Both the position numbers and the translations under genes were made by a program. A DNA stretch of 64,000 nt from Candidatus Heimdallarchaeota archaeon (GTDB lineage Archaea; Asgardarchaeota; Heimdallarchaeia; JABLTI01). Shown piece by piece: positions 2,877 to 38,871 of this stretch. Each line of letters starts with the position of its first letter. Position 1 is the first letter of the stretch. The stretch is taken from positions 93,943-157,942 of the forward strand of contig JAHLVW010000015.1 in NCBI GenBank assembly GCA_019058275.1. The letters run 5' to 3'. The notes below the pieces were generated by a model that made no database searches, was not told the DNA's origin, and was given only the letters and a program-made list of their open reading frames with translations.

Positions 2877-5762
2877 TTAGATCTCTTTAATCATTACTGC
2901 TTCTTCTTTCCTTGCAGAAATTATTCCTGGAATTACTGAGCTAAGTAATGATGCACCAAACATGATAGCTATCGTTAGTATCAATTTCAGTGACGAGTAA
3001 ACCATCTCCCATGGTGGGATAAATGAGTTTATCGCAATAATTGACATGAACATATATGATGCAAAAACCCCAAGTAGTATCCCCGTAAAAGCACCTAATA
3101 ACAAGACAGTAAATGATTCAGTATAGAAATAGCTAAACAACTGTCTTGGAGAAATACCTATGGTTTTCATAATCCCAACCTCATTTGTTCTCTCGAGAGT
3201 ATGAATTACCATCATTATTGACATAGCAAAAACTAATATCAAAATAGAAGCGATGAAATTGGAATTCAATGCTCCAAAAATTACCGTTGACCTTAAACTT
3301 CCTTCTGAGAAAGTAACTCTCTCTGCAATACTATCTACTTTTCTTCCATATGTCCATTCTTCTATTCCTTGAACAACTGATTCAGTAGCATAGTCATCTT
3401 TGACCTTAACGAATAGTTGTGTGTAAAAATCAGAACTGTCTCCAGATAGATTGAAAATATGTTCTGATGAAGCAACCAAAGAAAGTTCAAACTGAATTGT
3501 ACCAAATGTTGGTTTTTTAACGTAAACTACTGGCCAGAAATTGTAAAAATCTACAATCTTTGCTTGTTTTGTATCTATATCTGAACTACCTGAAAATTTA
3601 GGAATGTATATATCAAATAAGTCTCCTTCTGAGACATTAAAGGAAGATGATTGGTCATGTTGCATGATAATATTTAGTGAAACATTCGATTCTAAGGGGG
3701 CGTCTAGTTTCGAGATTATTTCCATAGTATCTGAATCAAGGTATTCCCGGTCGAAATAACCAACCTGTCCAAACTCTGACGTGTTTATCCCCATAAATGT
3801 AAAATGATAAACCACACTACCACGTGTTATAGGTGCTGTAGAAAACCAAGTAACATAAGTTGTAGCTTCTACTCCTTCTACTGCTTCTATATTTTGTCTA
3901 AAAACCTTATCAGATAAAGCCACATTGGAAATGACTATATCCGAACCTATAGTATAAGCTGCATTTTCATAATCAAATCCTTGGTAACTATCTGGTATTA
4001 CTATCGAGACAGTTGCCATGGTGAATGTAAGCATAACTAATACTAACGATCGCATGGTGGCACTTCTGCGCCTTCCTAAGCTTCTAAAAGCAATACTCAG
4101 TAACTCTAGTTTATGGAATTTCCATGTAACTTTGGAAAGCCACTTCGTTATTATAGGAAAGAGCCTTGTCACGACCATGATAGTTCCAATAATAACTAGA
4201 ATGGGAGCGGGAGTTCCCAATAACCTAGCAAACGCTATTGAGACATTAACGTTTTTGAGCTGAATCCAGGTAATTACCCAAGCAATTATGCCAACAACTA
4301 GTAGAAAGATATCAATGTAAAACCTTTCCCAAAATGGTTTTTTATCTCGCATTTCACTAAAAGCTTCTTCTTTCTCTAGTTGACTTAGATTCCTTATACT
4401 CCCTACATTTACAAGTAGAGAGCCAATAAAACCTGCAATAATTACTATCTCCAATATTAACACAAAGAATCGGGGAATTACAGTTGGACCTGTGAAATTT
4501 AAAAATGCAGCACTTTTCAGTATCAGAAATGTATAAGGATATGCAAGTATAAATGCTAATACTATCGCTATTGCTGTGAATATTACTAACTCCACCAGAA
4601 GCATTACTACAATTTCAGCTTGAGAACTACCTCTCATATTAAGAAGACCCAATTGTCGTTTCCTACGTTTCTTAATCAAATTTGAAGAATAAGCTGTTAA
4701 AGATAATGCCATGCTAATCATTGGAATCATAAACATAATGATTAAAATTCTGAAAATCTCAAATTCACTAACAAAATCTTGTAATATAATAATAATGTTC
4801 AAATCAAGATGAACTTCATTTGTAAATTCAGTGTCTTCAATCGAAGAACGTATTTGTTCTGTGAATCCAATAAACTTCTCAATTTCATTTTTTAAGTTGA
4901 AAGCATCAATTTCGTCTAGATTGAAAGCTATTGATCCTATAAATGTAGATTGATCTGGTGCTACCTGTGAAGGTGTTCCTGTTAATCCATGAGTGAAATC
5001 CATTAATGATTTATACGATGAAAGAATCAATTGATCTTCAGCGAGAATTGAGAAGAGATTTGTCAAGAAAGCTTTCTCTTCATAACTATTGTTTAAAGAT
5101 TCTTGTAACTCATAAACATCAATAACCCCTGTAATGTTTAGTGTTGCACCTGCAGCAGGGATACCTTGTTCAACACCAGCAGCAAGGTTTAGTGGATTGT
5201 AAATAGTAAAAACATTGTTTAATCCTTTAGATAGATTGGTATTTCTTAACATATCTGGTCTGAGAAGTAAAAGGACTTCACTAGAATTTGATGGAAGAGT
5301 CCCGTCATCTTGAATGTATGGGCTTAGTATATCAAAGAAAAAACTTGGTACACCAACATAATTAACAGCTACTAACTCAGTATTGTTATAATTCAAATAA
5401 TCAGTATAAGGAAGTACTACAGCCCGCCGATTGATCCAATACCTAAAAGCAGTAGTCCCTTCTAACCCAGAGGAAACGAGCGCTTTATCTACAATTGTCT
5501 CGAGTTCAGGTACAATCGTATCCTCTCTATTATAGGTGTTAATCATATTTGTTGGCGTTATTGTTATTTGTTCTTCTGGATTCTCTCTTATGTAAGTATT
5601 AAAAGCATCATATTGAAAGCTATAAAGAAAGATCAAGCTTTCAGCAACTAATGCAAGGCTAATTCCCAAGCCAATAAATGCGACCAGAGTATATCTTTTG
5701 TTAATGAAAATTATTCTGAAAAACAGATTTATTTTCTCATATACTCTACGTATAGTTGCCAA
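2877..5762 (-). CDS. FtsX/MacB-like ABC transporter permease (duplicated FtsX domains)
   Basis: KRRKRQLGLLNMRGSS and ERTNEVGIMKTIGISPRQL motifs, two large extracytoplasmic loops, many TM helices. Confidence 0.85.
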   Translation of the reverse strand: MATIRRVYEKINLFFRIIFINKRYTLVAFIGLGISLALVAESLIFLYSFQYDAFNTYIRENPEEQITITPTNMINTYNREDTIVPELETIVDKALVSSGLEGTTAFRYWINRRAVVLPYTDYLNYNNTELVAVNYVGVPSFFFDILSPYIQDDGTLPSNSSEVLLLLRPDMLRNTNLSKGLNNVFTIYNPLNLAAGVEQGIPAAGATLNITGVIDVYELQESLNNSYEEKAFLTNLFSILAEDQLILSSYKSLMDFTHGLTGTPSQVAPDQSTFIGSIAFNLDEIDAFNLKNEIEKFIGFTEQIRSSIEDTEFTNEVHLDLNIIIILQDFVSEFEIFRILIIMFMIPMISMALSLTAYSSNLIKKRRKRQLGLLNMRGSSQAEIVVMLLVELVIFTAIAIVLAFILAYPYTFLILKSAAFLNFTGPTVIPRFFVLILEIVIIAGFIGSLLVNVGSIRNLSQLEKEEAFSEMRDKKPFWERFYIDIFLLVVGIIAWVITWIQLKNVNVSIAFARLLGTPAPILVIIGTIMVVTRLFPIITKWLSKVTWKFHKLELLSIAFRSLGRRRSATMRSLVLVMLTFTMATVSIVIPDSYQGFDYENAAYTIGSDIVISNVALSDKVFRQNIEAVEGVEATTYVTWFSTAPITRGSVVYHFTFMGINTSEFGQVGYFDREYLDSDTMEIISKLDAPLESNVSLNIIMQHDQSSSFNVSEGDLFDIYIPKFSGSSDIDTKQAKIVDFYNFWPVVYVKKPTFGTIQFELSLVASSEHIFNLSGDSSDFYTQLFVKVKDDYATESVVQGIEEWTYGRKVDSIAERVTFSEGSLRSTVIFGALNSNFIASILILVFAMSIMMVIHTLERTNEVGIMKTIGISPRQLFSYFYTESFTVLLLGAFTGILLGVFASYMFMSIIAINSFIPPWEMVYSSLKLILTIAIMFGASLLSSVIPGIISARKEEAVMIKEI

Positions 5763-5938
5763 CTACTTTACCTCAACAATAATTATAAGAAATCCGTTTT
5801 AAGCATTTAGACCAATTTTATTTTAAAGAAGCTCATGAAGTAAACAAGAAAAAACAACTTTTTGATAAGAATTAAATTCTATTAGGATATAGATTTCATT
5901 ATAGTTGTATTATAATAAGCAAGGTTGTTTTAACTGTA

Positions 5939-8125
5939 ATGAAAGCAAAATATCAAATAAGATTTCTATCCATAATCGTAACGATTGTTATACCATTAGT
6001 ACTACTTAGTTCTAATTCCAATCTGGATAAGTATTTTGTAGAAAACGAACTTGCAAATTTTCCTTTAACAAATACCATTGAAATGAATGGTTATACAGAT
6101 ATAGAATCTTATTTTGATAATCCTATCTGGATAAATGATAACATTATTGGATCTATTATTTCTTCACCAACAATTAGTGATTTAGATAATGATTCAGATA
6201 TGGAAATTATATTATTAACTGATAGGAATTTTGTTTATATTTTGGATCACACTGGATTACCTTTGGATGGTTGGGGTGAGCCTTTTGCACTACATTTAGA
6301 TGAGGACCTAACTTCACATTCTGGTGATGCTCCACACCCAATAGTATTAGATTTCAATGATGATGGTGAACAAGAGATTATTGTTGCAACATTCAATGGG
6401 ACAATTCATGCATTCTTCTTAAATGGTACAGAAGTTCCTGGTTGGCCTGTATACATTGACGGGAATATTTCTTCTTCACCAGCAGCAGGGGATATAGATG
6501 GCGATTTGCAAGATGAGATTGTTGTAAGTAGTTGGAATTTTAATATCCATGCTTTTGAATTAGATGGGAATAATGTTACTGGATTTCCATTTACTGGATC
6601 AACAGATCAAATATTTAGCACACCTGCTCTTGCCAATCTTGATAGTGATCCCGAACTAGAAATAGCATTTGGTTCAGATGATAGCAACGTATATGTTTTA
6701 AACGGAGATGGAACAGTTATGCCAGGTTGGCCTAAAGAAACTAAGCATCATGTAAAATCAGCACCAGCTATAGCAGATTTGGATCTTGATGGTAAAAATG
6801 AGATAATTGTTGGTTCAGTCGATAAGAGCATCTACATTTTTAGAAATAACGGTTCTAATTTTGGCAGCTGGCCTTGTAAAACACCCATTTCGATTTATAC
6901 TAGTCCAACTGTTGGTGATATTAATTGTGATGGGTTTATTGATATTGTAATTCAAGCTAATAGTTCACTATATGCTTTTACAGATGTAGTGAATAGTAAT
7001 GACACTGAATGGACTAACTACTATCCAGGAGTAATAAGTAGGGAACAGATTATTGTTGACATTGATGGAGATCTAGTTCCTGAGATTATTCAAGTTACTA
7101 GTATTGGTTTTATTAGAATAATATCAAATAATGGCACTACTATACATTCGAAATTGTTAACGTTTAATGGAATCGAATCTCAACCAGCAGTTGGAGATAT
7201 AGATGGGGATAAAATTCTTGAAATTATTTTTACAACTAGAGCTACTGGTACAGTTGAAGCAATTGCTGAAGTTCATGCTTTCAAGTTAGGGTCTTTAGGA
7301 TTACTACCTTGGGGTGGATTCAGAGCAGGAAGAGAAAGAAATGGTAGACCATTTGATAGCGATGGTGATGGTTTAAACACAGCTGAAGAAGAGATTTTAG
7401 GAACAGATGAAAACAACCCAGATACAGACGGGGATACAATACTTGATGGTGATGAGATCTACAAATATAATCTTAATCCTGTGATACCAGATGCAGATGC
7501 AGATTATGATAATGATTTATTGAGTAATGTAGATGAGTTCGATATCTACAACACTGATCCTACAAATCCCGATACAGATGGGGATACATTAGAGGATGGG
7601 GAAGAAGTTTATACTTATGGAACAGATCCTACAAAATCAGATACCGATGATGATTTCATGCCTGATAATTTTGAGGTTAGGTTTGAGAACACCGATCCTC
7701 ACGTTCCTGATACTTATCAAGATCTTGATGAAGATAATTTAACTAATGTCGAGGAATATGATCAGGATACTAATCCAGACAATCCGGACACAGATGGTGA
7801 CTCTCTTCTAGATGGAGATGAAGTGAAAAGATACCATACAGATCCAAATGTGCCTGATGCGGATTTGGATTCTGATGGAGATGGACTTACCAATGTTGAC
7901 GAAGTAGACCTTTATGGTACAGACCCTACAGATCCTGATTCAGATGACGACGGATATGATGACTACTACGAGGTTAAACGTGGTACGGACCCAAATGACC
8001 CCAACAGTACGCCATTCCCATTATGGACTATTGCCCCAATAACTTTAGGTTCAAGTTTAATACTGGGAATTGCAGGTTACTTTACTATCAAAAATATTTA
8101 CTTAAAGAAAAGAAGAGCCATTTAA
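5939..8125 (+). CDS. Surface protein: FG-GAP/VCBS beta-propeller + TSP3-type Ca-binding repeats + C-terminal TM anchor
   Basis: Repeated SSP-x-x-GD-x-DGD-x-x-EI units, then DPTNPDTDGD-x-L-x-DG-x-E repeats, TM helix and KKRR tail. Confidence 0.85.
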   Translation: MKAKYQIRFLSIIVTIVIPLVLLSSNSNLDKYFVENELANFPLTNTIEMNGYTDIESYFDNPIWINDNIIGSIISSPTISDLDNDSDMEIILLTDRNFVYILDHTGLPLDGWGEPFALHLDEDLTSHSGDAPHPIVLDFNDDGEQEIIVATFNGTIHAFFLNGTEVPGWPVYIDGNISSSPAAGDIDGDLQDEIVVSSWNFNIHAFELDGNNVTGFPFTGSTDQIFSTPALANLDSDPELEIAFGSDDSNVYVLNGDGTVMPGWPKETKHHVKSAPAIADLDLDGKNEIIVGSVDKSIYIFRNNGSNFGSWPCKTPISIYTSPTVGDINCDGFIDIVIQANSSLYAFTDVVNSNDTEWTNYYPGVISREQIIVDIDGDLVPEIIQVTSIGFIRIISNNGTTIHSKLLTFNGIESQPAVGDIDGDKILEIIFTTRATGTVEAIAEVHAFKLGSLGLLPWGGFRAGRERNGRPFDSDGDGLNTAEEEILGTDENNPDTDGDTILDGDEIYKYNLNPVIPDADADYDNDLLSNVDEFDIYNTDPTNPDTDGDTLEDGEEVYTYGTDPTKSDTDDDFMPDNFEVRFENTDPHVPDTYQDLDEDNLTNVEEYDQDTNPDNPDTDGDSLLDGDEVKRYHTDPNVPDADLDSDGDGLTNVDEVDLYGTDPTDPDSDDDGYDDYYEVKRGTDPNDPNSTPFPLWTIAPITLGSSLILGIAGYFTIKNIYLKKRRAI

Positions 8126-32231: not shown

Positions 32232-33515
32232 TCATTCTTGTTCAGCGTCAGCAGTTAATCCAAGCTCTTCAGCAAAAATTAACCTTAATTCAGGTTTGAT
32301 TTCAAAAGAGACGATACGTCCATCTCGGTTCTTATTGAGAAAGTTTAAAGCAGCCATTTGGTTTAGATATCGAGAAAGATTTCCTTGATCCATTCCTAAT
32401 TCATCTGATAATGCTGTGCCAACAATAGGTCCACCATTTTTCTCGCTAATAATTACCTCAAGAATATCTCTCATCTTTGGTGTGAGGATTTGTTTAATTC
32501 GCTCACTTTGTGCGTCCTTCAGCTTTTCTCTAGCAAATTCAACACCATCATTAATGGCATCTAAACCTATTTTCTTAACATCATTCTGAGCAGCAACATC
32601 AAGAATTGATCTTAAAACTAAGAGAAGCATTCTTGGATTACCTGTTGCATATTTCTTGTTCACTTTTGAGATAACTTCTTCATCAAATGGTTCTAAGCTA
32701 TCTGGTTTCTCTGGTCTGAAGGCTGTCAATCTTTTTCGTATTATTTCAATAGCAATCTTGTCTGTTACTGGTTTGAATTCAATCTCCACATGAACTCGAG
32801 TAGCAACAGCAGGATGAATTTCTTTTAGTGAAGCCCAGGCATTAGGTGTGGAACAAATAACAGTTATGTGTCCAGGAATACCAACTGCATGACTAAAATA
32901 CTCTCTTAAAATCTCAAATGTTTTTCTAATTTCACGTTGAATGCTTGCCTCAATAATCTCTTCAAATTCATCTATTATTAAACCTGAAAGAATATCTTGA
33001 TCACCAATTTTCTTGAAAATCTTAGCTAAGTCCTCACCAGCCTCATAAGGTTTGAACTTCGATTCAGGTATTGAATTAATATCACGATATTTTTCCCAAA
33101 GTTTTTTAGCAAAATCTCTCAACTCATCAGAAGCTTTGTCATTATTCATAATTGGTACACAAACACTCTCAAATAAAGCATATGTTACAATACCAGGTGT
33201 ACCGCCTGGCAATTTTGTATAAAAGACAAAAGCATCTTTTCTCATAAGGGTCTCTTTAATAGAGCTAGCACGAATAGACTTTCCTGATCCATATTCACCT
33301 ATAAGTGCAACAGTAGCAGAACCACTATTCAAAATTGTAGACAGATTTGAAGCTATTTTTTTATCTGCTGCAGTCACCACATGCATTTTTACTATTTCTT
33401 CTGCAGTCATCGATTCTGCTGAGATTTTATCAAAAGGATTTCTTTTAAGATCATATTTCGTTAGGTAATTATCTTCACTGAGCATATCATCATATATAGA
33501 CAAACAAGTCACCAC
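32232..33515 (-). CDS. AAA+ ATPase with C-terminal wHTH (Cdc6/ExeA-like architecture)
   Basis: LKRNPF, GEYGSGKS Walker A, IIDEFE Walker B, GNPR, C-term HTH (LSDELGMDQGNLSRYL). Confidence 0.8.
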   Translation of the reverse strand: MVTCLSIYDDMLSEDNYLTKYDLKRNPFDKISAESMTAEEIVKMHVVTAADKKIASNLSTILNSGSATVALIGEYGSGKSIRASSIKETLMRKDAFVFYTKLPGGTPGIVTYALFESVCVPIMNNDKASDELRDFAKKLWEKYRDINSIPESKFKPYEAGEDLAKIFKKIGDQDILSGLIIDEFEEIIEASIQREIRKTFEILREYFSHAVGIPGHITVICSTPNAWASLKEIHPAVATRVHVEIEFKPVTDKIAIEIIRKRLTAFRPEKPDSLEPFDEEVISKVNKKYATGNPRMLLLVLRSILDVAAQNDVKKIGLDAINDGVEFAREKLKDAQSERIKQILTPKMRDILEVIISEKNGGPIVGTALSDELGMDQGNLSRYLNQMAALNFLNKNRDGRIVSFEIKPELRLIFAEELGLTADAEQE

Positions 33516-33622: not shown

Positions 33623-34060
33623 TCATTCTTTTGTTCGTATAGGATATGCCAATACGATTTGAGTGGGATCTAGTTTCTTAAAATTGATGAAGAACTCAAT
33701 GAACAAAGCTGCAAATACCAGATCAACTGCCCCAACTACCAGCATTGGTATGCCACATAAGTTCATTATGAAGAAAATTAAATAAATCATAAACAGAGAG
33801 ATTTTTAAAAGAATTCCCGCAGAAACCACTAAATGATTTTTAGTGATATCAAGACCAACTAGAAAATACATAAATCCTAAATTAATAATTAGGAAAAGAA
33901 AGCTATAAAGCCAAATGTAAATTTCAGGTTTCTTATAAATAACAAATATTTGCAAGAAAGTATCCACTGTTGGAGCTAAAACAGCAAAGATAATTGCAGC
34001 AAGGATGTATCCGATACCTGCGACCATAAACATGTACTTGTAATAAATTGCTTTGTTCAT
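33623..34060 (-). CDS. 4-TM membrane protein
   Basis: Four hydrophobic helices, ..DLVFAALF. Confidence 0.7.
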   Translation of the reverse strand: MNKAIYYKYMFMVAGIGYILAAIIFAVLAPTVDTFLQIFVIYKKPEIYIWLYSFLFLIINLGFMYFLVGLDITKNHLVVSAGILLKISLFMIYLIFFIMNLCGIPMLVVGAVDLVFAALFIEFFINFKKLDPTQIVLAYPIRTKE

Positions 34061-34108
34061 CTAAACACCCGATTAGTATTATGTAGTTATAGTAAATATT
34101 CTTTTTGT

Positions 34109-34126
34109 ATTTGTACAGAGACAAAA
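34109..34126. promoter_or_regulatory. Operator copy (ATTTGT-ACAGAG-ACAAAA)
   Basis: Near match to the palindrome family at 35.3 and 36.2 kb; about 50 bp upstream of the 34060 start. Confidence 0.45.
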
Positions 34127-34217
34127 AAAAAGAATAAATAGATAGTATTTCCTGCGAATGGAAGAAGAAAGAGCATTTTTGCTTGTCTTTCTCTTAAAAT
34201 AGCTCATTTACTATCTA

Positions 34218-34508
34218 TTATTCTCTGAAATCTTCACCATGGAAGATGCCCATTGGATAGACCCCTTCGGTTGGAATCGCTTCGACTTTGTCAGTAATTT
34301 TCTTAACTGACTCAAGATCTTTAGTATCCCATTGACAAAGGATCTTGATTATCTTCCCTTCTTCATTGAAGATACCCCAGCTTTTTATCCAATAAGCATC
34401 TTTGGTGTTTAATGCTTTGAAGGCTTTACCAATTGGTGTAGCCTGTTCTATGGTTGCTGGAATAGGTACTGGATGAACAGCTAAAAATTTTGGCATTTCT
34501 CTTTTCAC
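34218..34508 (-). CDS. DUF4242/SCO4226-like small ferredoxin-fold protein (probable start MPKF at 34496)
   Basis: MPKFLAVH..WIKSW..KILCQWD pattern; GAGGTG RBS before the ATG. Confidence 0.6.
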   Translation of the reverse strand: MKREMPKFLAVHPVPIPATIEQATPIGKAFKALNTKDAYWIKSWGIFNEEGKIIKILCQWDTKDLESVKKITDKVEAIPTEGVYPMGIFHGEDFRE

Positions 34509-34522
34509 CTCAATTTTATTTA

Positions 34523-35299
34523 TTATGGAATGGTAGTTGGCAAACTAACGTCATGATATTGTGACCAACCAAATAGATGGATGCATAGTGTTGCTTCAAA
34601 ACCAAATAAATCGAGTGCTGTTTGTACGATTAAAGTAACAAAAACACGATCAAAGATCCTAGATATTTCTAGTCGAAGATGATTATTTGAAAAAACATTT
34701 CCCTTAGCAGAATTTATGACACTCATTTTATCAACAAATATCATAGGTGCCTCAAGTGGTGGGAAGTAGCAATAATCGAATATCAGTTGTTTTTCATAGA
34801 GAATTTTCTCGATCTTATGAAACTCAGAGATGAATTTCGCTTCAAGATAATCTTTTATTTCTCCCTCTGCGACAATATAGTTATCATATATTCTATGAAG
34901 CTTGACAATTTTTCGTTCAAGCTTTACGCAGCGATGTTGAATTAAGCCATCAACGAACATATCTTCTAGAGTGAACAAAAGTATTTCAAAATCATCTCCA
35001 GGCATTCGTGGATGATAATAGTTAACTATATCATAATTTCCACTAGCTAAAATCCCGTCAATATCTTCTTCTGGTCTTAAAGTGAATTTTATTCCAAGCT
35101 CTAATGCTTGTCCAAATGTATCCTCAAAAAGTTGCTCTTGCAATTCTGTTACTACAGGATGAGGGGAAAATCCCTCCCAAATGTAATCAACTTCAATGTA
35201 TTCTTGTTCTTTGTAAGCATAAGTATTTGTTGCAATTAGTGGCAAGGGCATACATAGTACTAAAATGATAGATATTCTAGATAATTTCAGTAAGTTAAT
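34523..35299 (-). CDS. Secreted protein resembling a circularly permuted SBP family-5 domain; paralog B; probable ATT start at 35299
   Basis: ORF extends upstream into a signal peptide INLLKLSRISIILVLCMPL preceded by GGGAGG; ELGIKF..GNYDI and NSAKGNVFSNNHLRLEISRIFDR motifs. Confidence 0.65.
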   Translation of the reverse strand: MNLLKLSRISIILVLCMPLPLIATNTYAYKEQEYIEVDYIWEGFSPHPVVTELQEQLFEDTFGQALELGIKFTLRPEEDIDGILASGNYDIVNYYHPRMPGDDFEILLFTLEDMFVDGLIQHRCVKLERKIVKLHRIYDNYIVAEGEIKDYLEAKFISEFHKIEKILYEKQLIFDYCYFPPLEAPMIFVDKMSVINSAKGNVFSNNHLRLEISRIFDRVFVTLIVQTALDLFGFEATLCIHLFGWSQYHDVSLPTTIP

Positions 35300-35318
35300 T
35301 TTTAAAATCCTCCCAAAT

Positions 35319-35380
35319 TATTTTGTAGTGTGATAAAATATAGTTAAGGTGCTATAAGGATTTCGTAGTTCTACAAAAAT
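35319..35380. promoter_or_regulatory. Two operator palindromes flanking a minus-strand TATA-like box
   Basis: TTTTGT-AGTGTG-ATAAAA (35321-35338) and TTTCGT-AGTTCT-ACAAAA (35361-35378), 40 bp apart. Confidence 0.7.
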
Positions 35381-35396
35381 AACAGAAAAAATAAGA

Positions 35397-35420
35397 GTGA
35401 TCCGGTTAAGAACCGGACAC
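35397..35420 (-). terminator. Hairpin + U-tract after paralog A
   Basis: GTG-TCCGGTT-CTT-AACCGGA-T-CAC then TCTTATTTTTTCT on the minus strand. Confidence 0.55.
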
Positions 35421-35437
35421 TAATAAAAGCAACACGA

Positions 35438-36178
35438 TTAGGTGGGATAACAATTGGGTAAACTGGAATCATGATAAGATGCCCATTGGAACATGTGATA
35501 AAACTCATAGACAGGGTATGGATTATAGGTTGAATGATAATCTAGGAAAACTGATCGATCAATAATTGAATTAAATTCTAATCTCAAAGCGTCATCTGCG
35601 AAAACACGTCCTGGCAAACAATTTACGTTCATACTCTCTCCATTCCTAAGAGCTGGTTCCACCCATCGAACAAATGTGAACATATACTGATTCTCCCAAA
35701 GACATTCTTCGATATCATGGAATTTATCGGTCATATCGTCTAAGAAATCTTCATCCACTACATAAGGATTCTCTTGAGCTTCCCAAAACATTCCGTAAAT
35801 CTTATCAGTTTGCTTTATGAGTTTTGGATCATCAGGTTTCAAAACAATATAGTTAAGAATCCCTAAAATGTAAGCATGAGTGAAAATATCATCGACATTC
35901 GGGATATTCAGAATCCCTCCATAGGTTAAATCCCAATCATCTGTGAATGTGGCACGTTCACGCCACTCATCAAAATTAAGATAAATAGGATTTACCGATA
36001 ATCCTAAGCTTTCCGCTTTGAATATTATTTCATCAACTATTACTTGTTTTTCTGGAAATTCCAACCAGATAATCATATCAATCGCATTTGTTTCGTCAGC
36101 AGTCGTTGAAAAAATGGTTGTTAAAGGTAAACAAAGAACTAAGATTATGAGAGTTATTTTTATGTGCTTTAATCTAAT
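35438..36178 (-). CDS. Secreted protein resembling a circularly permuted SBP family-5 domain; paralog A; probable ATT start at 36178
   Basis: Upstream signal peptide IRLKHIKITLIILVLCLPL after GAGGAG; SLGLSV..DWDLTYGG, then NCLPGRVFADDALRLEFNSIIDR. Confidence 0.65.
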   Translation of the reverse strand: MRLKHIKITLIILVLCLPLTTIFSTTADETNAIDMIIWLEFPEKQVIVDEIIFKAESLGLSVNPIYLNFDEWRERATFTDDWDLTYGGILNIPNVDDIFTHAYILGILNYIVLKPDDPKLIKQTDKIYGMFWEAQENPYVVDEDFLDDMTDKFHDIEECLWENQYMFTFVRWVEPALRNGESMNVNCLPGRVFADDALRLEFNSIIDRSVFLDYHSTYNPYPVYEFYHMFQWASYHDSSLPNCYPT

Positions 36179-36197
36179 TTTTCTTCTCCTCTCTGAG

Positions 36198-36261
36198 GAT
36201 TTCGTAGTGTGACAAAATATGATGGAATTGATATATAAATATTTTGTAGTGAGACGAAAAG
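36198..36261. promoter_or_regulatory. Two operator palindromes flanking a TATA box in the divergent promoter
   Basis: TTTCGT-AGTGTG-ACAAAA (36200-36217) and TTTTGT-AGTGAG-ACGAAA (36242-36259), 42 bp apart, with TTTATATA (minus strand) between. Confidence 0.72.
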
Positions 36262-36303
36262 ATTTTTATGTTTAGAAAATCTAAAGATATATGAGTGGTA
36301 AGT

Positions 36304-36909
36304 ATGCCTAAAGAAAAAAGAAAAGTTGGACGACCAAGAAAGTACGAAACACAATCAGCACGACAAAAAGCCTATCATGAACGCAAAAAACAAAAAATGA
36401 AAGAATTAGAAGAGGAAGTTAAAAAATTGGAGAAGCATACTCTATTCCCCTCTGATTCACTAGATGATGTTTTTGAAGAACTTGCTTTCAAAGAAGTGTC
36501 TAAATTTCCTTGGAAAAAGATTACCCCAAGTGAGATTGCTCTTATGGGAACACAGGATCTAGAATTATTGGTTAGAGAATTTCGAGAGAGAATCCAGGGG
36601 CAATCATCATTTAACAGATCCCTAGAAAATATAGTAATGGGTATTATCAATAAAAATTACCTTGCAACTAGAGAAAACCCTCCTTTAGAAAGACTAAAAG
36701 GAGTCACTGTACAAATTCAAGAAAATATTGGGAATTTAGAGGAAAGAATGCAACAGCAAACATTACTTTATCTAATGGAGGCAGAGCTTACAAATCGAGA
36801 GAGATTAGATGGTCGAAAAACAAAGTTAGATCTTTTTGAAGCTAAAATAGATGAATTGGAAAAAGAAGTTAAGGAAAAGAAAGTTGAAGTGAAGAAAAAA
36901 GCTCATTAG
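36304..36909 (+). CDS. Putative DNA-binding regulator with basic region + coiled coil (bZIP-like)
   Basis: KRKVGRPRKYETQSARQKAYHERKKQKMKELEEEVKKLE followed by a helical domain. Confidence 0.65.
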   Translation: MPKEKRKVGRPRKYETQSARQKAYHERKKQKMKELEEEVKKLEKHTLFPSDSLDDVFEELAFKEVSKFPWKKITPSEIALMGTQDLELLVREFRERIQGQSSFNRSLENIVMGIINKNYLATRENPPLERLKGVTVQIQENIGNLEERMQQQTLLYLMEAELTNRERLDGRKTKLDLFEAKIDELEKEVKEKKVEVKKKAH

Positions 36910-37056: not shown

Positions 37057-38871
37057 ATGGAAGATGGTTTAGAAGAGATAATGAGTTTATACAAAGCTCG
37101 TAAATTTGAGGAGTGCTTGAATTCGGTTCTTGAGCTTGAAAAACAAAGCAATTTAAATGCTAATCAAAAAAAGAAAATTTCTGACTTTAAAATTCGATCA
37201 CTTATCAGATTGAATAAGTTTACTGAAGCTCATAGTATCATTGATCAAGCAATCAAGAAGTACTCAAAAAATAAAGATTGGGAAAATGTTCTTGAAAATT
37301 TAATCTCGAAAATTAGTATATTAAATGGAGAGTGGAAATTAAAAGAAACATTAGATGTAATTGATCAAGGAGAATCAATTTTAAAACAAATCAAAAAACT
37401 AACTGCAGGATTAATTGAGAGCAAGGGATGGTTATTATACTGGAAAGGTTTTATCCATCACTTTCTTTTTAAAACAAAGGAATCTATTGAATTTCTTCAT
37501 GAGTCATTAGATTTTGCAGAAAAAAATTCACTTAATGTTATTAGAGGCCAAACCTTACATTGGTTAGGTAATGGATATGGCACATTAGGGCAATATGATT
37601 TAGCTCTCAAATATAAAAAGCAAGCGCTAAAGTATTTCAAAGAGATAGGAGTTGATCTCAATGTTTTACACCTATTACACAACATTGGTATAACTTATGC
37701 TGAAAAAGGAGAATACAAAAAAACTAGAGAATATTTTAAAGAAAGATTCAAAATCACTGGCGAATACCCTCATGCCATAGCTGCCATTGGCGATAGTTAT
37801 TGGCGCGAAGAAGAATTGGAGAAAGGATTAGAATATATTGAACGTGGATTAGAAAAGCTTCAGGAGCAATTTAAAAGCATTGACAAAAATTTTATTGTTT
37901 CTTTTATACTTGCCAATTTACATTCTCGAATTGGAAAAATGGATGAAGCAATGGAATTATACAAGAAAACAATTGATCTTGCGAGTGTTTTTCCATGTCT
38001 AGCTACCATTGGTTTTAGCAATGTTGGTATTTCCACAGTTTATTTTTTCCGAGGAGAATTAGAAAAAGCATTAGAACATGCTAAAGAAGCATTAAGAATT
38101 TTAGAAGACATCGAAAATAGATATGGTATGAGTTGGGTACATTTTAGTATAATGAAAATATACCACGAGAAAAATGACTAGGAAAATGCTCTTTTACATG
38201 CACAAATTTGTTTAGATCTTCGAATGGCAATGGGGAATAAATAGGATATTGCACAAACACTGCGTTTTCTAATCACATTTTTATTAGAAAAAGAGAGCTA
38301 TGATGAAACAGATTCATATATGAAGCAACTTGAAGAAGTGGCATCAACAACTGATAATAGGATTGTAAGGCAAAATTGTCAACTTTCTGAAACATTAATA
38401 CTTAAATCAAAAGGTAGACCGAAATATTGGACACAAGCTATTGATATCTTAGAAAAAATAGTTAGTGAACCTATTGCAACTTACAATACTACTCTTGTTG
38501 CATTGATTAATTTATGTGAATTATTACTAAATGAATTCAGCATTTCTGGAGATGAGGAGGTATTAAACGATTTGCAAACACACACCAGTAGATTACTCGA
38601 TATTGCTCAGAAGCAGAACTCCTATACTTTAAGAGTTGAGGTTTATCATATTCGTATCATTACGTTATGGCTACAAGCACAACATACAAAGCTAGATATC
38701 AACATACAAAATGCATGTAGGTTGTTACAAGAAGCACGTGATCTAGCTGATTCACATGGATTGATTAAATTATCATCAAAAATCACTACTCAAAATGATA
38801 AGATGCTTGACCAGTTAGAAAATTGGGATGAATTCATAAGAAAATATTATGACTTTATCAAATCAAGCTAG
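37057..38871 (+). pseudogene. TPR-repeat protein interrupted by two in-frame TAG codons (38179, 38242)
   Basis: ORFs 37057-38181 and 38320-38871 share a frame and the TPR pattern continues across both stops. Confidence 0.8.

What the first reader, a model, noticed from the sequence alone, without database searches (positions are those of the whole stretch)
33623..36909. Self-contained candidate regulon: bZIP-like regulator, five operator palindromes and four small target genes
Seen: an 18-bp palindrome TTTYGT-N6-AYRAAA occurs at 35321, 35361, 36200 and 36242, with a near match at 34109. Two copies bracket the TATA-like box of each secreted paralog (40 and 42 bp apart), and one lies upstream of the 4-TM gene. 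The 36200/36242 pair is also in the divergent promoter of a basic-region/coiled-coil gene (36304). Inference: that protein binds the sites, autoregulates, and controls two exported permuted-SBP proteins, a DUF4242-like protein and a membrane protein. I do not recognise this module as described.
Basis: partly seen in the sequence, partly recalled or inferred. Interest (0 to 1): 0.8.

Follow-up and report, generated by a model that had tools for sequence, protein, structure and literature searches.

The report
Heimdallarchaeal zipper-like regulator with local operators
A small Heimdallarchaeal protein with an AT-hook and a bZIP-like basic helix sits beside four copies of an 18-bp palindrome found nowhere else in its genome, and comparison with relatives indicates it is a new kind of archaeal transcription factor that controls itself and neighbouring genes for secreted proteins.

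Summary
TTTYGTAGT-N3-AYRAAA occurs exactly four times in the 4.12-Mb genome, all within 940 bp of this locus, as two pairs 40 and 42 bp apart. The looser palindrome is at background frequency elsewhere.

The two downstream genes share only 27% protein identity, yet both keep the site pair. Four congeneric genomes keep the same gene order and the same pairs (spacing 40-43 bp), while the spacers between sites drift.

The adjacent 201-aa protein belongs to a family seen only in Heimdallarchaeia/Asgard records (76 homologues, all 'hypothetical'). Almost every member carries a TTTYGT-N6-ACRAAA palindrome 58-63 bp before its own start codon. The central 6 bp change together with the variable residues of the basic helix.

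I read it as an autoregulated local transcription factor, probably a repressor. Targets are the two secreted solute-binding-protein-like paralogues and the SCO4226-like gene.

The fifth site, and so the 4-TM gene as a target, is weak. 'bZIP-like' is a resemblance, not membership: the best solved-structure matches are Pap1/Yap-type bZIPs at E 1.5e-4, but the Pfam score is below threshold, the zipper has two heptads, and the operator is 18 bp. No binding experiment exists.

The parts
36304..36909 (+). Regulator, 201 aa. It has an AT-hook (G9-R10-P11), a basic helix plus two-heptad zipper (predicted helix 17-44), a conserved W-KITPSEIALM motif, a helical domain, and a 73-residue C-terminal helix.
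   Evidence: ORF. Weak Pfam hits to AT_hook and bZIP_1. 76 homologues, named ones all Heimdallarchaeota/Asgard. Invariant residues. AF2 model with pLDDT 82. Family profile best matches bZIPs among solved structures.
36242..36259 (+). Operator R, TTTTGTAGTGAGACGAAA. It lies at -62 to -45 from the regulator ATG and is the distal site for parB.
   Evidence: 15 of 18 columns are invariant in 5 genomes. Family-wide position near -60.
36200..36217 (+). Operator L, TTTCGTAGTGTGACAAAA. It is the proximal site for parB and lies over the expected parB transcription start.
   Evidence: 11 of 18 columns invariant, against 3 of 22 in the spacer.
36232..36239 (.). TATATAAA box between the two operators. It reads TTTATATA on the - strand and is the likely parB TATA.
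   Evidence: Sequence and paralogue promoter alignment. It is not conserved in three orthologues, which carry a TATA in a 50-bp insertion instead.
36263..36270 (+). TTTTTATG, a TATA-like box 3 nt after operator R and the likely regulator promoter. An equivalent box follows the -60 operator in nearly all family members.
   Evidence: inference from position.
35438..36178 (-). parB: secreted solute-binding-protein-like protein, 246 aa, with a signal peptide. Probable ATT start 7 nt after a GAGAGGAG Shine-Dalgarno sequence.
35400..35418 (-). Terminator-like hairpin plus T-run after parB. It separates the parB and parA transcription units.
35361..35378 (+). Distal operator of parA, TTTCGTAGTTCTACAAAA. 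This is the most symmetric copy.
35350..35359 (-). TATA-like CCTTATAGCA between the two parA operators.
   Evidence: inference.
35321..35338 (+). Proximal operator of parA, TTTTGTAGTGTGATAAAA.
34523..35299 (-). parA: secreted solute-binding-protein-like paralogue, 258 aa, 26.6% identical to parB. Probable ATT start.
   Evidence: AF2 model pLDDT 77.5. All 50 best structural matches are periplasmic binding proteins, Z 6.0-7.1.
34218..34508 (-). 96-aa SCO4226-like (former DUF4242) gene, 14 bp after parA and probably co-transcribed with it.
   Evidence: Pfam PF14026, E 0.017, below threshold. It has its own operator pair in genome G072 (L034 10912 and 10954).
34109..34126 (.). Weak fifth site upstream of the 4-TM gene. 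On the - strand it reads TTTTGT.CTCTGT.ACAAAT and overlaps a second candidate CTCTGT.ACAAAT.ACAAAA.
   Evidence: It is conserved in 3 orthologues but lacks the GTAGT core.
33623..34060 (-). 145-aa membrane protein with 4 predicted TM segments. It is a possible target but this is not established.
37057..38871 (+). TPR (MalT-like) gene, the conserved neighbour of the regulator family. Here it is interrupted by in-frame TAG codons at 38179-38181 and 38242-38244. Orthologues are single 602-603-aa ORFs.

Best explanation
The 36304-36909 gene encodes a sequence-specific DNA-binding transcription factor of a family found here only in Heimdallarchaeia.

Proposed DNA contact (all inferred): an N-terminal module of about 50 residues contacts each half of an 18-bp palindrome. 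The AT-hook would lie in the minor groove of the outer A/T tract. The basic helix would lie in the major groove over YGT/ACR and the centre. The short zipper, probably helped by the long C-terminal helix, would join two subunits.

Arrangement and proposed effect: in this genome the cognate operators (TTTYGTAGT-N3-AYRAAA) exist only in this locus. Each parA or parB promoter has one operator abutting the BRE/TATA and a second about 42 bp away (four helical turns, same face of the DNA) over the expected transcription start. Occupancy should therefore exclude TBP/TFB or RNA polymerase, which means repression. Operator R also overlaps the BRE position of the regulator's own promoter, which would give negative autoregulation.

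Targets: parB; parA together with the SCO4226-like gene; and the regulator itself. The 4-TM gene is only a possible target. The inducing signal is unknown. The conserved adjacent MalT-like TPR protein is the best candidate for a sensor or co-regulator.

Shown: motif uniqueness, conservation, synteny, the family-wide position near -60, and protein-operator covariation. Inferred: binding, dimerisation, the sign of regulation, and the role of the TPR protein.
For: (1) The strict motif has 4 hits in 4.12 Mb, all in this locus. The loose motif gives 8 strand-hits against 0.41 expected in the window.

(2) parA and parB share only 26.6% protein identity, yet both promoters keep two operators, the Shine-Dalgarno sequence and the start context.

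(3) The orthologous loci in 4 congeneric genomes keep the gene order. They keep operator pairs 40-43 bp apart before each parA/parB copy; the exception is parA in G075, which has only a degenerate site. G072 has an extra pair before its SCO4226-like gene.

(4) Footprint across 5 genomes: 11/18 and 15/18 invariant columns in the two operators, against 3/22 in the spacer.

(5) Of about 33 distinct family loci, 26 have a match with at most 1 mismatch to TTTYGT-N6-ACRAAA starting at -58 to -63 from the start codon, often with a second site at -100 to -118. The background rate for such matches is 0.034 per kb.

(6) The operator centre tracks the basic-region class..QKAYH with AGTRAG; RIH..SRAYY with GTTATC; ATNADRQRAYY with AACAAT; PKEDKYARQKAYY with ATAAAT or ATAATT; AERKKAYR with CTCGGG. 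The last class carries an Arg at the position aligned to the centre-contacting Arg of bZIPs and has a G/C-rich centre.

(7) Proteins of 49-57 aa that consist only of AT-hook, basic helix and short zipper exist, and one has its own -60 palindrome (L036:6357-6518). The module therefore looks autonomous.

(8) The family profile's best solved-structure matches are bZIP DNA-binding domains, aligned in register over the basic region: 7aw7 E 1.5e-4, Pap1 E 0.034 to 0.008.

(9) The GRP core and R20, A23, Y24, R27, K28, K29 are invariant. AF2 predicts a disordered AT-hook followed by a 28-residue helix.
Against: There is no experimental binding, expression or transcription-start data.

Regulator and operator diverge along the same tree, so the covariation is not phylogenetically independent. 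I see about six operator classes.

An 18-bp palindrome whose conserved halves are 12 bp apart centre to centre is not canonical bZIP geometry, and the zipper has only about two heptads before a proline.

The TATA box between the parB operators is not conserved in three orthologues. There a 50-bp insertion carries the TATA downstream of both sites. That arrangement looks more like upstream activating sites, so the sign of regulation is uncertain.

The N-terminal motif also occurs in hundreds of unrelated short proteins, at least some bacterial, whose function is unknown.
Confidence: 0.75

Rival explanations
1. Same protein and same sites, but the protein is an activator or a dual regulator. Paired sites upstream of or abutting the BRE/TATA would recruit TFB/TBP, in the way described for archaeal activators that bind just upstream of the BRE.
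For: In G076, G075 and G072 both regulator-type sites lie upstream of the strongest TATA of parB. At the regulator's own promoter the operator ends 3 nt before a conserved TATA-like box, which is the position used by upstream activators. The right half-site ACRAAA looks like a BRE.
Against: In the window and in G081 the proximal operators of parA and parB lie 15-22 bp downstream of the TATA-like box, over the expected start site, which is a typical repressor position. Overlap with the BRE more often blocks TFB.
Confidence: 0.3
2. The palindromes are operators of some other factor, and the 201-aa protein is a non-DNA-binding coiled-coil protein that merely shares the divergent promoter. One source labels a homologue as phasin-like.
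For: No direct binding evidence exists. No recognised DNA-binding Pfam domain reaches threshold. The whole-protein fold search found nothing.
Against: The palindrome follows the family everywhere at a fixed distance from the start, including in 50-aa mini-paralogues. Its centre changes with the basic-region residues. The AT-hook core and basic residues are invariant. The best profile matches are bZIP DNA-binding regions.
Confidence: 0.08
3. The repeats are passive leftovers of a duplicated promoter, or they act as RNA hairpins in the 5' leaders, not as protein-binding DNA sites.
For: The two promoters are paralogous. Palindromes can fold in RNA, and the proximal copies may be partly transcribed.
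Against: The coding regions have diverged to 27% identity and the spacers are free to vary, while the sites stay nearly invariant in five species. The distal copies and the regulator's -62 copy lie upstream of the TATA-like boxes and so are probably not transcribed. The sites are asymmetric (GTAGT on one side only) with non-complementary centres, which would make poor hairpins.
Confidence: 0.04

Closest known systems
Eukaryotic bZIP factors of the Pap1/Yap type (PDB 1gd2; 7aw7)
   Same: A basic helix runs directly into a heptad-repeat helix. The segment RQKAY-x-ERKK followed by MKELEEEVKKLE aligns in register with AQRAFRERR/K followed by the zipper, including the Yap-specific Gln and aromatic residue. 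These are the best solved-structure matches of the family profile. The sites are palindromic, which implies a dimer.
   Different: The Pfam bZIP_1 score is below threshold (15.4 against 27.6 bits). The signature Asn and Arg positions are variable (Gln and His in this protein). The zipper has only about two heptads. An AT-hook is fused N-terminally and there is a 150-residue helical C-terminal part. The operator is 18 bp with conserved outer halves, not 8-10 bp of abutting half-sites.
[quoted passage not shown]
   Same: It is an archaeal repressor proposed to grip promoter DNA with paired basic helices reminiscent of bZIP/bHLH rather than a helix-turn-helix. It is a precedent for zipper-like DNA binding in archaea.
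   Different: AmzR is a large one-component protein with PAS and GAF ligand-binding domains and a disulfide-linked dimer. The protein here has none of these, has an AT-hook, is seen here only in Heimdallarchaeia, and is paired with a separate TPR protein.
GvpE, haloarchaeal gas-vesicle activator described as bZIP-like (my own knowledge: Krueger et al. 1998; Ploesser and Pfeifer 2002; it is modelled with DNA in the AmzR preprint)
   Same: A small archaeal regulator with a basic region next to an amphipathic helix, acting on promoters in its own gene cluster.
   Different: No sequence relationship was detected or tested here. GvpE is an activator that binds upstream of the BRE and has no AT-hook.
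AT-hook proteins (HMGA; bacterial CarD-type)
   Same: An invariant GRP core flanked by basic residues, next to A/T-rich DNA (the TTTT/AAAA ends of the operator).
   Different: Classical AT-hooks give low-specificity minor-groove binding and occur in arrays. Here a single hook is fused to a specific basic helix.
Archaeal repressors whose operators flank the TATA or cover the transcription start (for example MDR1, LrpA, Phr, TrmB; my own knowledge)
   Same: Operator placement relative to BRE/TATA and start site, autoregulation, and a small local regulon.
   Different: Those use helix-turn-helix or winged-helix domains. This protein has none.

Membership tests
bZIP (Pfam PF00170 bZIP_1) | Score at or above Pfam's gathering threshold | tested here: not met
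   15.4 bits against a cut-off of 27.6, E 0.021, residues 21-44 only.
bZIP (Pfam PF00170 bZIP_1) | Basic-region signature N-x7-R/K | tested here: not met
   In the register given by HMMER this protein has Gln17 and His25. Both positions vary in the family. The C96 paralogue class does have N-x7-R.
bZIP (Pfam PF00170 bZIP_1) | Leucine zipper of about 4 or more heptads directly after the basic region | tested here: not met
   L35, V39 and L42 are followed by a proline at 49. The predicted helix ends at residue 44.
bZIP (Pfam PF00170 bZIP_1) | Significant profile similarity to solved bZIP domains | tested here: inconclusive
   Best PDB matches of the family profile are bZIPs: 7aw7 E 1.5e-4 (full profile) and 4e-4 (N-terminal profile), Pap1 E 0.034 and 0.008, GCN4/Jun/CREB E 0.1-0.4. 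Designed coiled coils score in the same low range. Only 2 of 112 remote N-terminal-motif hits carry bZIP_1.
bZIP (Pfam PF00170 bZIP_1) | Parallel homodimer or heterodimer on abutting half-sites | not testable with these tools
   No DNA-protein modelling or assay was available. The operator is an 18-bp palindrome with conserved outer halves.
AT-hook (PF02178) | R-G-R-P core in a basic context | tested here: met
   G9-R10-P11 are invariant and R12 is at least 90% conserved in 25 sequences. The Pfam score of 16.4 is just under the 17.4 cut-off.
AmzR family | PAS and GAF sensor domains behind the basic N-terminal helix | tested here: not met
   No PAS or GAF hit in Pfam. The protein is 201 aa and all-helical.
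Family-5 solute-binding proteins (PF00496 SBP_bac_5), for parA and parB | Sequence match to the family profile | tested here: not met
   No Pfam or NCBIfam hit. Only language-model features point to SBP_bac_5 (0.94; 24 of 30 hits).
Family-5 solute-binding proteins (PF00496 SBP_bac_5), for parA and parB | Periplasmic-binding-protein type II fold | tested here: inconclusive
   All 50 best chains are solute-binding proteins, but at Z 6.0-7.1. Residues 31-180 align to the C-terminal lobe of OppA/DppA/NikA-type proteins. Foldseek E-values are 0.015 or higher. The proteins are about half the size of a family-5 SBP.
SCO4226-like (PF14026, former DUF4242), for the 96-aa gene | Score at or above the gathering threshold | tested here: inconclusive
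   15.7 bits against 28.5, but the alignment spans profile positions 1-71 of 76.

The most novel reading that the evidence does not exclude
The N-terminal AT-hook plus basic-helix plus short-zipper module is a true homologue of the eukaryotic bZIP domain (Pap1/Yap-like), not a convergent look-alike. It would be preserved in Heimdallarchaeia and related to the widespread prokaryotic GRPRKY-x3-AERQ-x-AYRERKK motif. That would give bZIP factors, so far regarded as a eukaryotic invention, a prokaryotic or Asgard root, with a readable residue-to-base code (positions 17 and 25 against the operator centre).
Probability: 0.15. Interest if true: 0.9.

Novelty: new variant of a known kind. Interest (0 to 1): 0.62.

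Why it matters
Archaeal transcription factors are almost all helix-turn-helix proteins of bacterial type. Only scattered zipper-like cases are known (GvpE, and AmzR in a 2025 preprint).

This is an uncharacterised family with no Pfam model, found in the archaeal lineage usually placed closest to eukaryotes. Its predicted DNA-binding part is an AT-hook fused to a bZIP-like basic helix. It comes with unusually clean predicted operators, unique in the genome, and about six natural 'specificity swaps' between paralogues.

That makes the DNA-recognition code directly testable with short peptides and oligonucleotides. It also gives a concrete handle on whether bZIP-type recognition predates eukaryotes.

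In addition, the work defines a recurrent Heimdallarchaeal module: a secreted or surface-protein gene, divergently transcribed from the regulator, followed by a MalT-like TPR protein.

Tried and rejected
- Homodimer prediction for the regulator (two copies, alignment A2): no verdict, score 0.03. I do not use it either way.
- Foldseek search of the regulator model against the PDB: no match better than E 0.5.
- Atlas feature search with residues 1-60: only small hypothetical bacterial or viral proteins at 0.81-0.86, below the level that counts.
- NCBIfam: nothing for any of the five genes.
- RNA evidence: no RNA holder is listed for this stretch. The DNA is held only by sediment-metagenome runs that may be its source, so no start sites or expression data could be obtained.
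- Literature: full-text searches for bZIP + Asgard + archaea, and for Heimdallarchaeota + transcription factor terms, found no description of this family.
- Genome-wide regulon: rejected. Strict sites occur only in the locus, and sites with up to 2 mismatches elsewhere look like chance.
- Homology between the 4-TM gene and the 4-TM gene next to a mini-paralogue in L036: none detected.
- TAG read-through of the interrupted TPR gene: no tRNA with a CUA anticodon among the 24 tRNAs that ARAGORN found. Independent contigs of three runs show the same two TAG codons.
- Naming the organisms behind the remote N-terminal-motif hits: 10 clusters looked up, and only one carries an organism name (an Anaerolineae bacterium).


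Full report
**1. Observation**

The window is contig C1:93943-157942 of a 4.12-Mb genome in 118 contigs with 32% G+C.

That is 8 strand-hits against 0.41 expected from shuffles.

The four locus sites are not simple palindromes. All carry TTTYGTAGT on the + strand and a weaker right half. The resulting pattern TTTYGTAGT-N3-AYRAAA has exactly four hits in the whole genome, all here. TTTYGT-N6-ACRAAA occurs at only six genomic positions, three of them in the locus. With one mismatch allowed there are 141 positions, or 0.034 per kb. Outside the locus the loose motif is at background, so this is a local regulon and not a global one.

**2. Anatomy**

On the - strand lie four genes:
- a 4-TM gene (33623-34060);
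- a 96-aa gene with a sub-threshold, full-length match to SCO4226-like/DUF4242 (34218-34508);
- two paralogues with signal peptides, parA (34523-35299) and parB (35438-36178).

parA and parB are only 26.6% identical as proteins. Aligned, their upstream regions still keep two operators, a GGAGG-type Shine-Dalgarno sequence and the context AAAAATT.

In gene orientation each promoter reads as follows: distal operator; 0-3 nt; a TATA-like box; about 15-20 nt; proximal operator; Shine-Dalgarno; start. A terminator-like hairpin (35400-35418) separates parB from the parA promoter. The SCO4226-like gene follows parA after 14 bp.

The regulator (36304-36909, + strand) diverges from parB. Operator R (36242-36259) lies at -62 to -45 from its ATG and is followed 3 nt later by TTTTTATG.

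**3. Comparative test: orthologues**

The regulator has 76 homologues in the large protein collection. Nearly all of those that carry a name are labelled Heimdallarchaeota or Asgard 'hypothetical protein'. In one genome per species of its class it is found in 24 of 83 genomes, mainly in two genera.

Four congeneric genomes (loci L032-L035) keep the order 4-TM, SCO4226-like, parA, parB (one or two copies), then divergently the regulator and a TPR gene. They carry operator pairs 40-43 bp apart before the parA/parB copies. Two details differ: G075's parA has only a degenerate site, and G072's SCO4226-like gene, which there has its own intergenic region, has its own pair.

In a five-genome alignment of the parB-regulator intergenic region, the two operators have 11/18 and 15/18 invariant columns. 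The spacer between them has 3/22.

**4. Comparative test: the whole family**

Across about 33 distinct loci, 26 homologues carry a match with at most one mismatch to TTTYGT-N6-ACRAAA that starts 58-63 bp before their start codon. A second site often lies at -100 to -118. At a background of 0.034 per kb this cannot be chance, even if only the roughly six sequence classes are counted as independent.

The outer halves are constant. The central six bases differ by class and track the variable residues of the basic region:

| Basic-region class | Operator centre |
|---|---|
| ..QKAYH | AGTRAG |
| RIH..SRAYY | GTTATC |
| ATNADRQRAYY | AACAAT |
| PKEDKYARQKAYY | ATAAAT or ATAATT |
| AERKKAYR | CTCGGG |

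The genome's own second copy (contig C96, L001:5541-6140, 35% identical) belongs to the last class. It has TGTCYCGRGACA sites 35 bp before its ATG and in the promoter of a small secreted-protein gene.

Proteins of about 50 aa that consist only of the hook, basic helix and short zipper also exist, and one has its own -60 palindrome. This is the pattern expected of a DNA-binding module and its cognate operator.

**5. What the protein is**

The invariant residues are the GRP core, R20, A23, Y24, R27-K29 and L35/E36, then a W-KITPSEIALM motif and a QQQTLLYLMEAEL motif.

AF2 (pLDDT 82) predicts:
- a disordered tip, residues 1-16;
- a helix, 17-44;
- a small helical domain;
- a 73-residue C-terminal helix.

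Pfam gives only sub-threshold AT_hook and bZIP_1 hits.

A family profile searched against all PDB sequences finds bZIP DNA-binding domains first: 7aw7 at E 1.5e-4, Pap1 at 0.034 (0.008 with the N-terminal profile), then GCN4, Jun and CREB at E 0.1-0.4. The basic regions align in register. In that register the Yap-type Gln and aromatic residue are conserved. The two classic base-contacting positions (the signature Asn and Arg) are exactly the ones that vary between operator classes.

Against membership:
- the Pfam threshold is not reached;
- the zipper has about two heptads;
- the operator is 18 bp long.

A profile of the first 54 residues finds 634 proteins (E up to 1e-3) among 1.84 billion representatives. 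Beyond the family these are mostly short proteins, the one named example being bacterial, that carry GRPRKY-x3-AERQ-x-AYRERKK, often in tandem. Of 112 such proteins scanned against Pfam, 7 match AT_hook and 2 match bZIP_1.

I therefore call the module bZIP-like in how it probably works, and do not call it a member of the bZIP family.

Archaeal precedents for zipper-like factors are GvpE (my own knowledge) and AmzR. AmzR has PAS and GAF domains and is unrelated in architecture.

**6. Mechanism**

Operator pairs centred about 42 bp apart lie on one face of the helix. In the window and in G081 one operator abuts the TATA/BRE and the other covers the expected start site of parA and parB. Operator R overlaps the BRE position of the regulator's own TATA-like box, an arrangement repeated in nearly all paralogue promoters.

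Repression with negative autoregulation is the simplest reading. However, in three orthologues a 50-bp insertion places the best parB TATA downstream of both sites. It also adds a CTCGGG-type site, the operator type of the other paralogue, over the start region. Activation or dual control, and cross-talk between paralogous regulators, therefore remain open.

**7. Targets and partner**

parB draws family-5 solute-binding-protein features in the Atlas (0.94). An AF2 model of parA (pLDDT 77.5) matches only periplasmic binding proteins among its 50 best hits, at Z 6.0-7.1. Residues 31-180 align to the C-terminal lobe of OppA/DppA/NikA-type proteins. This supports 'small secreted SBP-like protein' at moderate confidence. 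Circular permutation was not tested.

The regulator family is followed by a MalT-like TPR protein at every locus with enough flank: the window, L001, L033-L035, L036 (twice), L037 and L039. The C-terminal domain of that protein belongs to a large Heimdallarchaeal expansion, present in 79 of 83 genomes with up to 22 copies. At other family loci the divergent neighbours are again secreted or surface proteins.

In the window the TPR gene carries two in-frame TAG codons. Independent contigs confirm them, and no suppressor tRNA was found. The partner may therefore be inactive in this organism.

**8. Verdict**

Still inferred are binding, dimerisation, the sign of regulation, the signal, and the status of the 4-TM gene as a target.

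The system is a new variant of a known kind: a locally autoregulated archaeal transcription factor with an undescribed AT-hook/bZIP-like DNA-binding module.

Noticed in passing
window 35297-35299 and 36176-36178 (- strand); L032-L035: All parA and parB genes in five genomes appear to start at ATT (ATA in two parA copies), exactly 7 nt after a strong GGGAGGAG Shine-Dalgarno sequence. In the window, and in several orthologues, no in-frame ATG/GTG/TTG lies between the upstream stop and this codon. parA homologues in other metagenomes have ATG at the same position.
   Followed up: partly
window 38179-38181 and 38242-38244: The TPR gene next to the regulator is a single 602-603-aa ORF in orthologues. 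Here it has two in-frame TAG codons (Tyr and Gln in the orthologues), with the frame otherwise intact. Independent contigs from three runs show the same letters, and no CUA-anticodon tRNA was found. It is probably a recent pseudogene or a split gene.
   Followed up: partly
L001 (G000 contig C96:26000-38000), 4661-8005: A second module exists in the same genome. It contains a regulator paralogue (5541-6140), a fused 497-aa TPR gene on the opposite strand (6173-7666) and a 52-aa mini-paralogue with only the hook, basic helix and zipper (7848-8003). It has its own operator type, TGTCYCGRGACA, at 4661, 4727 and 5505, including in the promoter of a small secreted-protein gene.
   Followed up: partly
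L032 about 2337; L033, L034 and L028, about -157 from the regulator start: The CTCGGG-type operator, the type of the other paralogue, sits in a 50-bp insertion between the regulator-type sites and the parB start in three or four congeneric genomes, but not in the window. This suggests cross-regulation between paralogous regulators.
   Followed up: no
proteins P0121-P0237: The motif GRPRKY-x3-AERQ-x-AYRERKK is widespread in short, mostly unannotated proteins, one of them from an Anaerolineae bacterium. It is often repeated in tandem or sits at the C-terminus of large proteins, once behind a GntR/FCD regulator. Apart from AT_hook it has no Pfam family.
   Followed up: partly
G000 contig C7:6238: A perfect palindrome TTGTCTCGAGACA of the C96 operator type lies elsewhere in the genome. 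It could be a further target of the paralogous regulator.
   Followed up: no
window 38320-38871 and class-wide: The C-terminal domain of these TPR proteins has no Pfam family. It is expanded across Heimdallarchaeia (79 of 83 genomes, up to 22 copies), usually at the end of 600-780-aa TPR proteins, and several copies carry internal stop codons.
   Followed up: no
window 32232-33515 (- strand): An AAA+ ATPase with a C-terminal winged-helix domain (weak BrxC/D, ORC/Cdc6-like and NACHT hits) is the conserved neighbour beyond the 4-TM gene in the orthologous loci.
   Followed up: no
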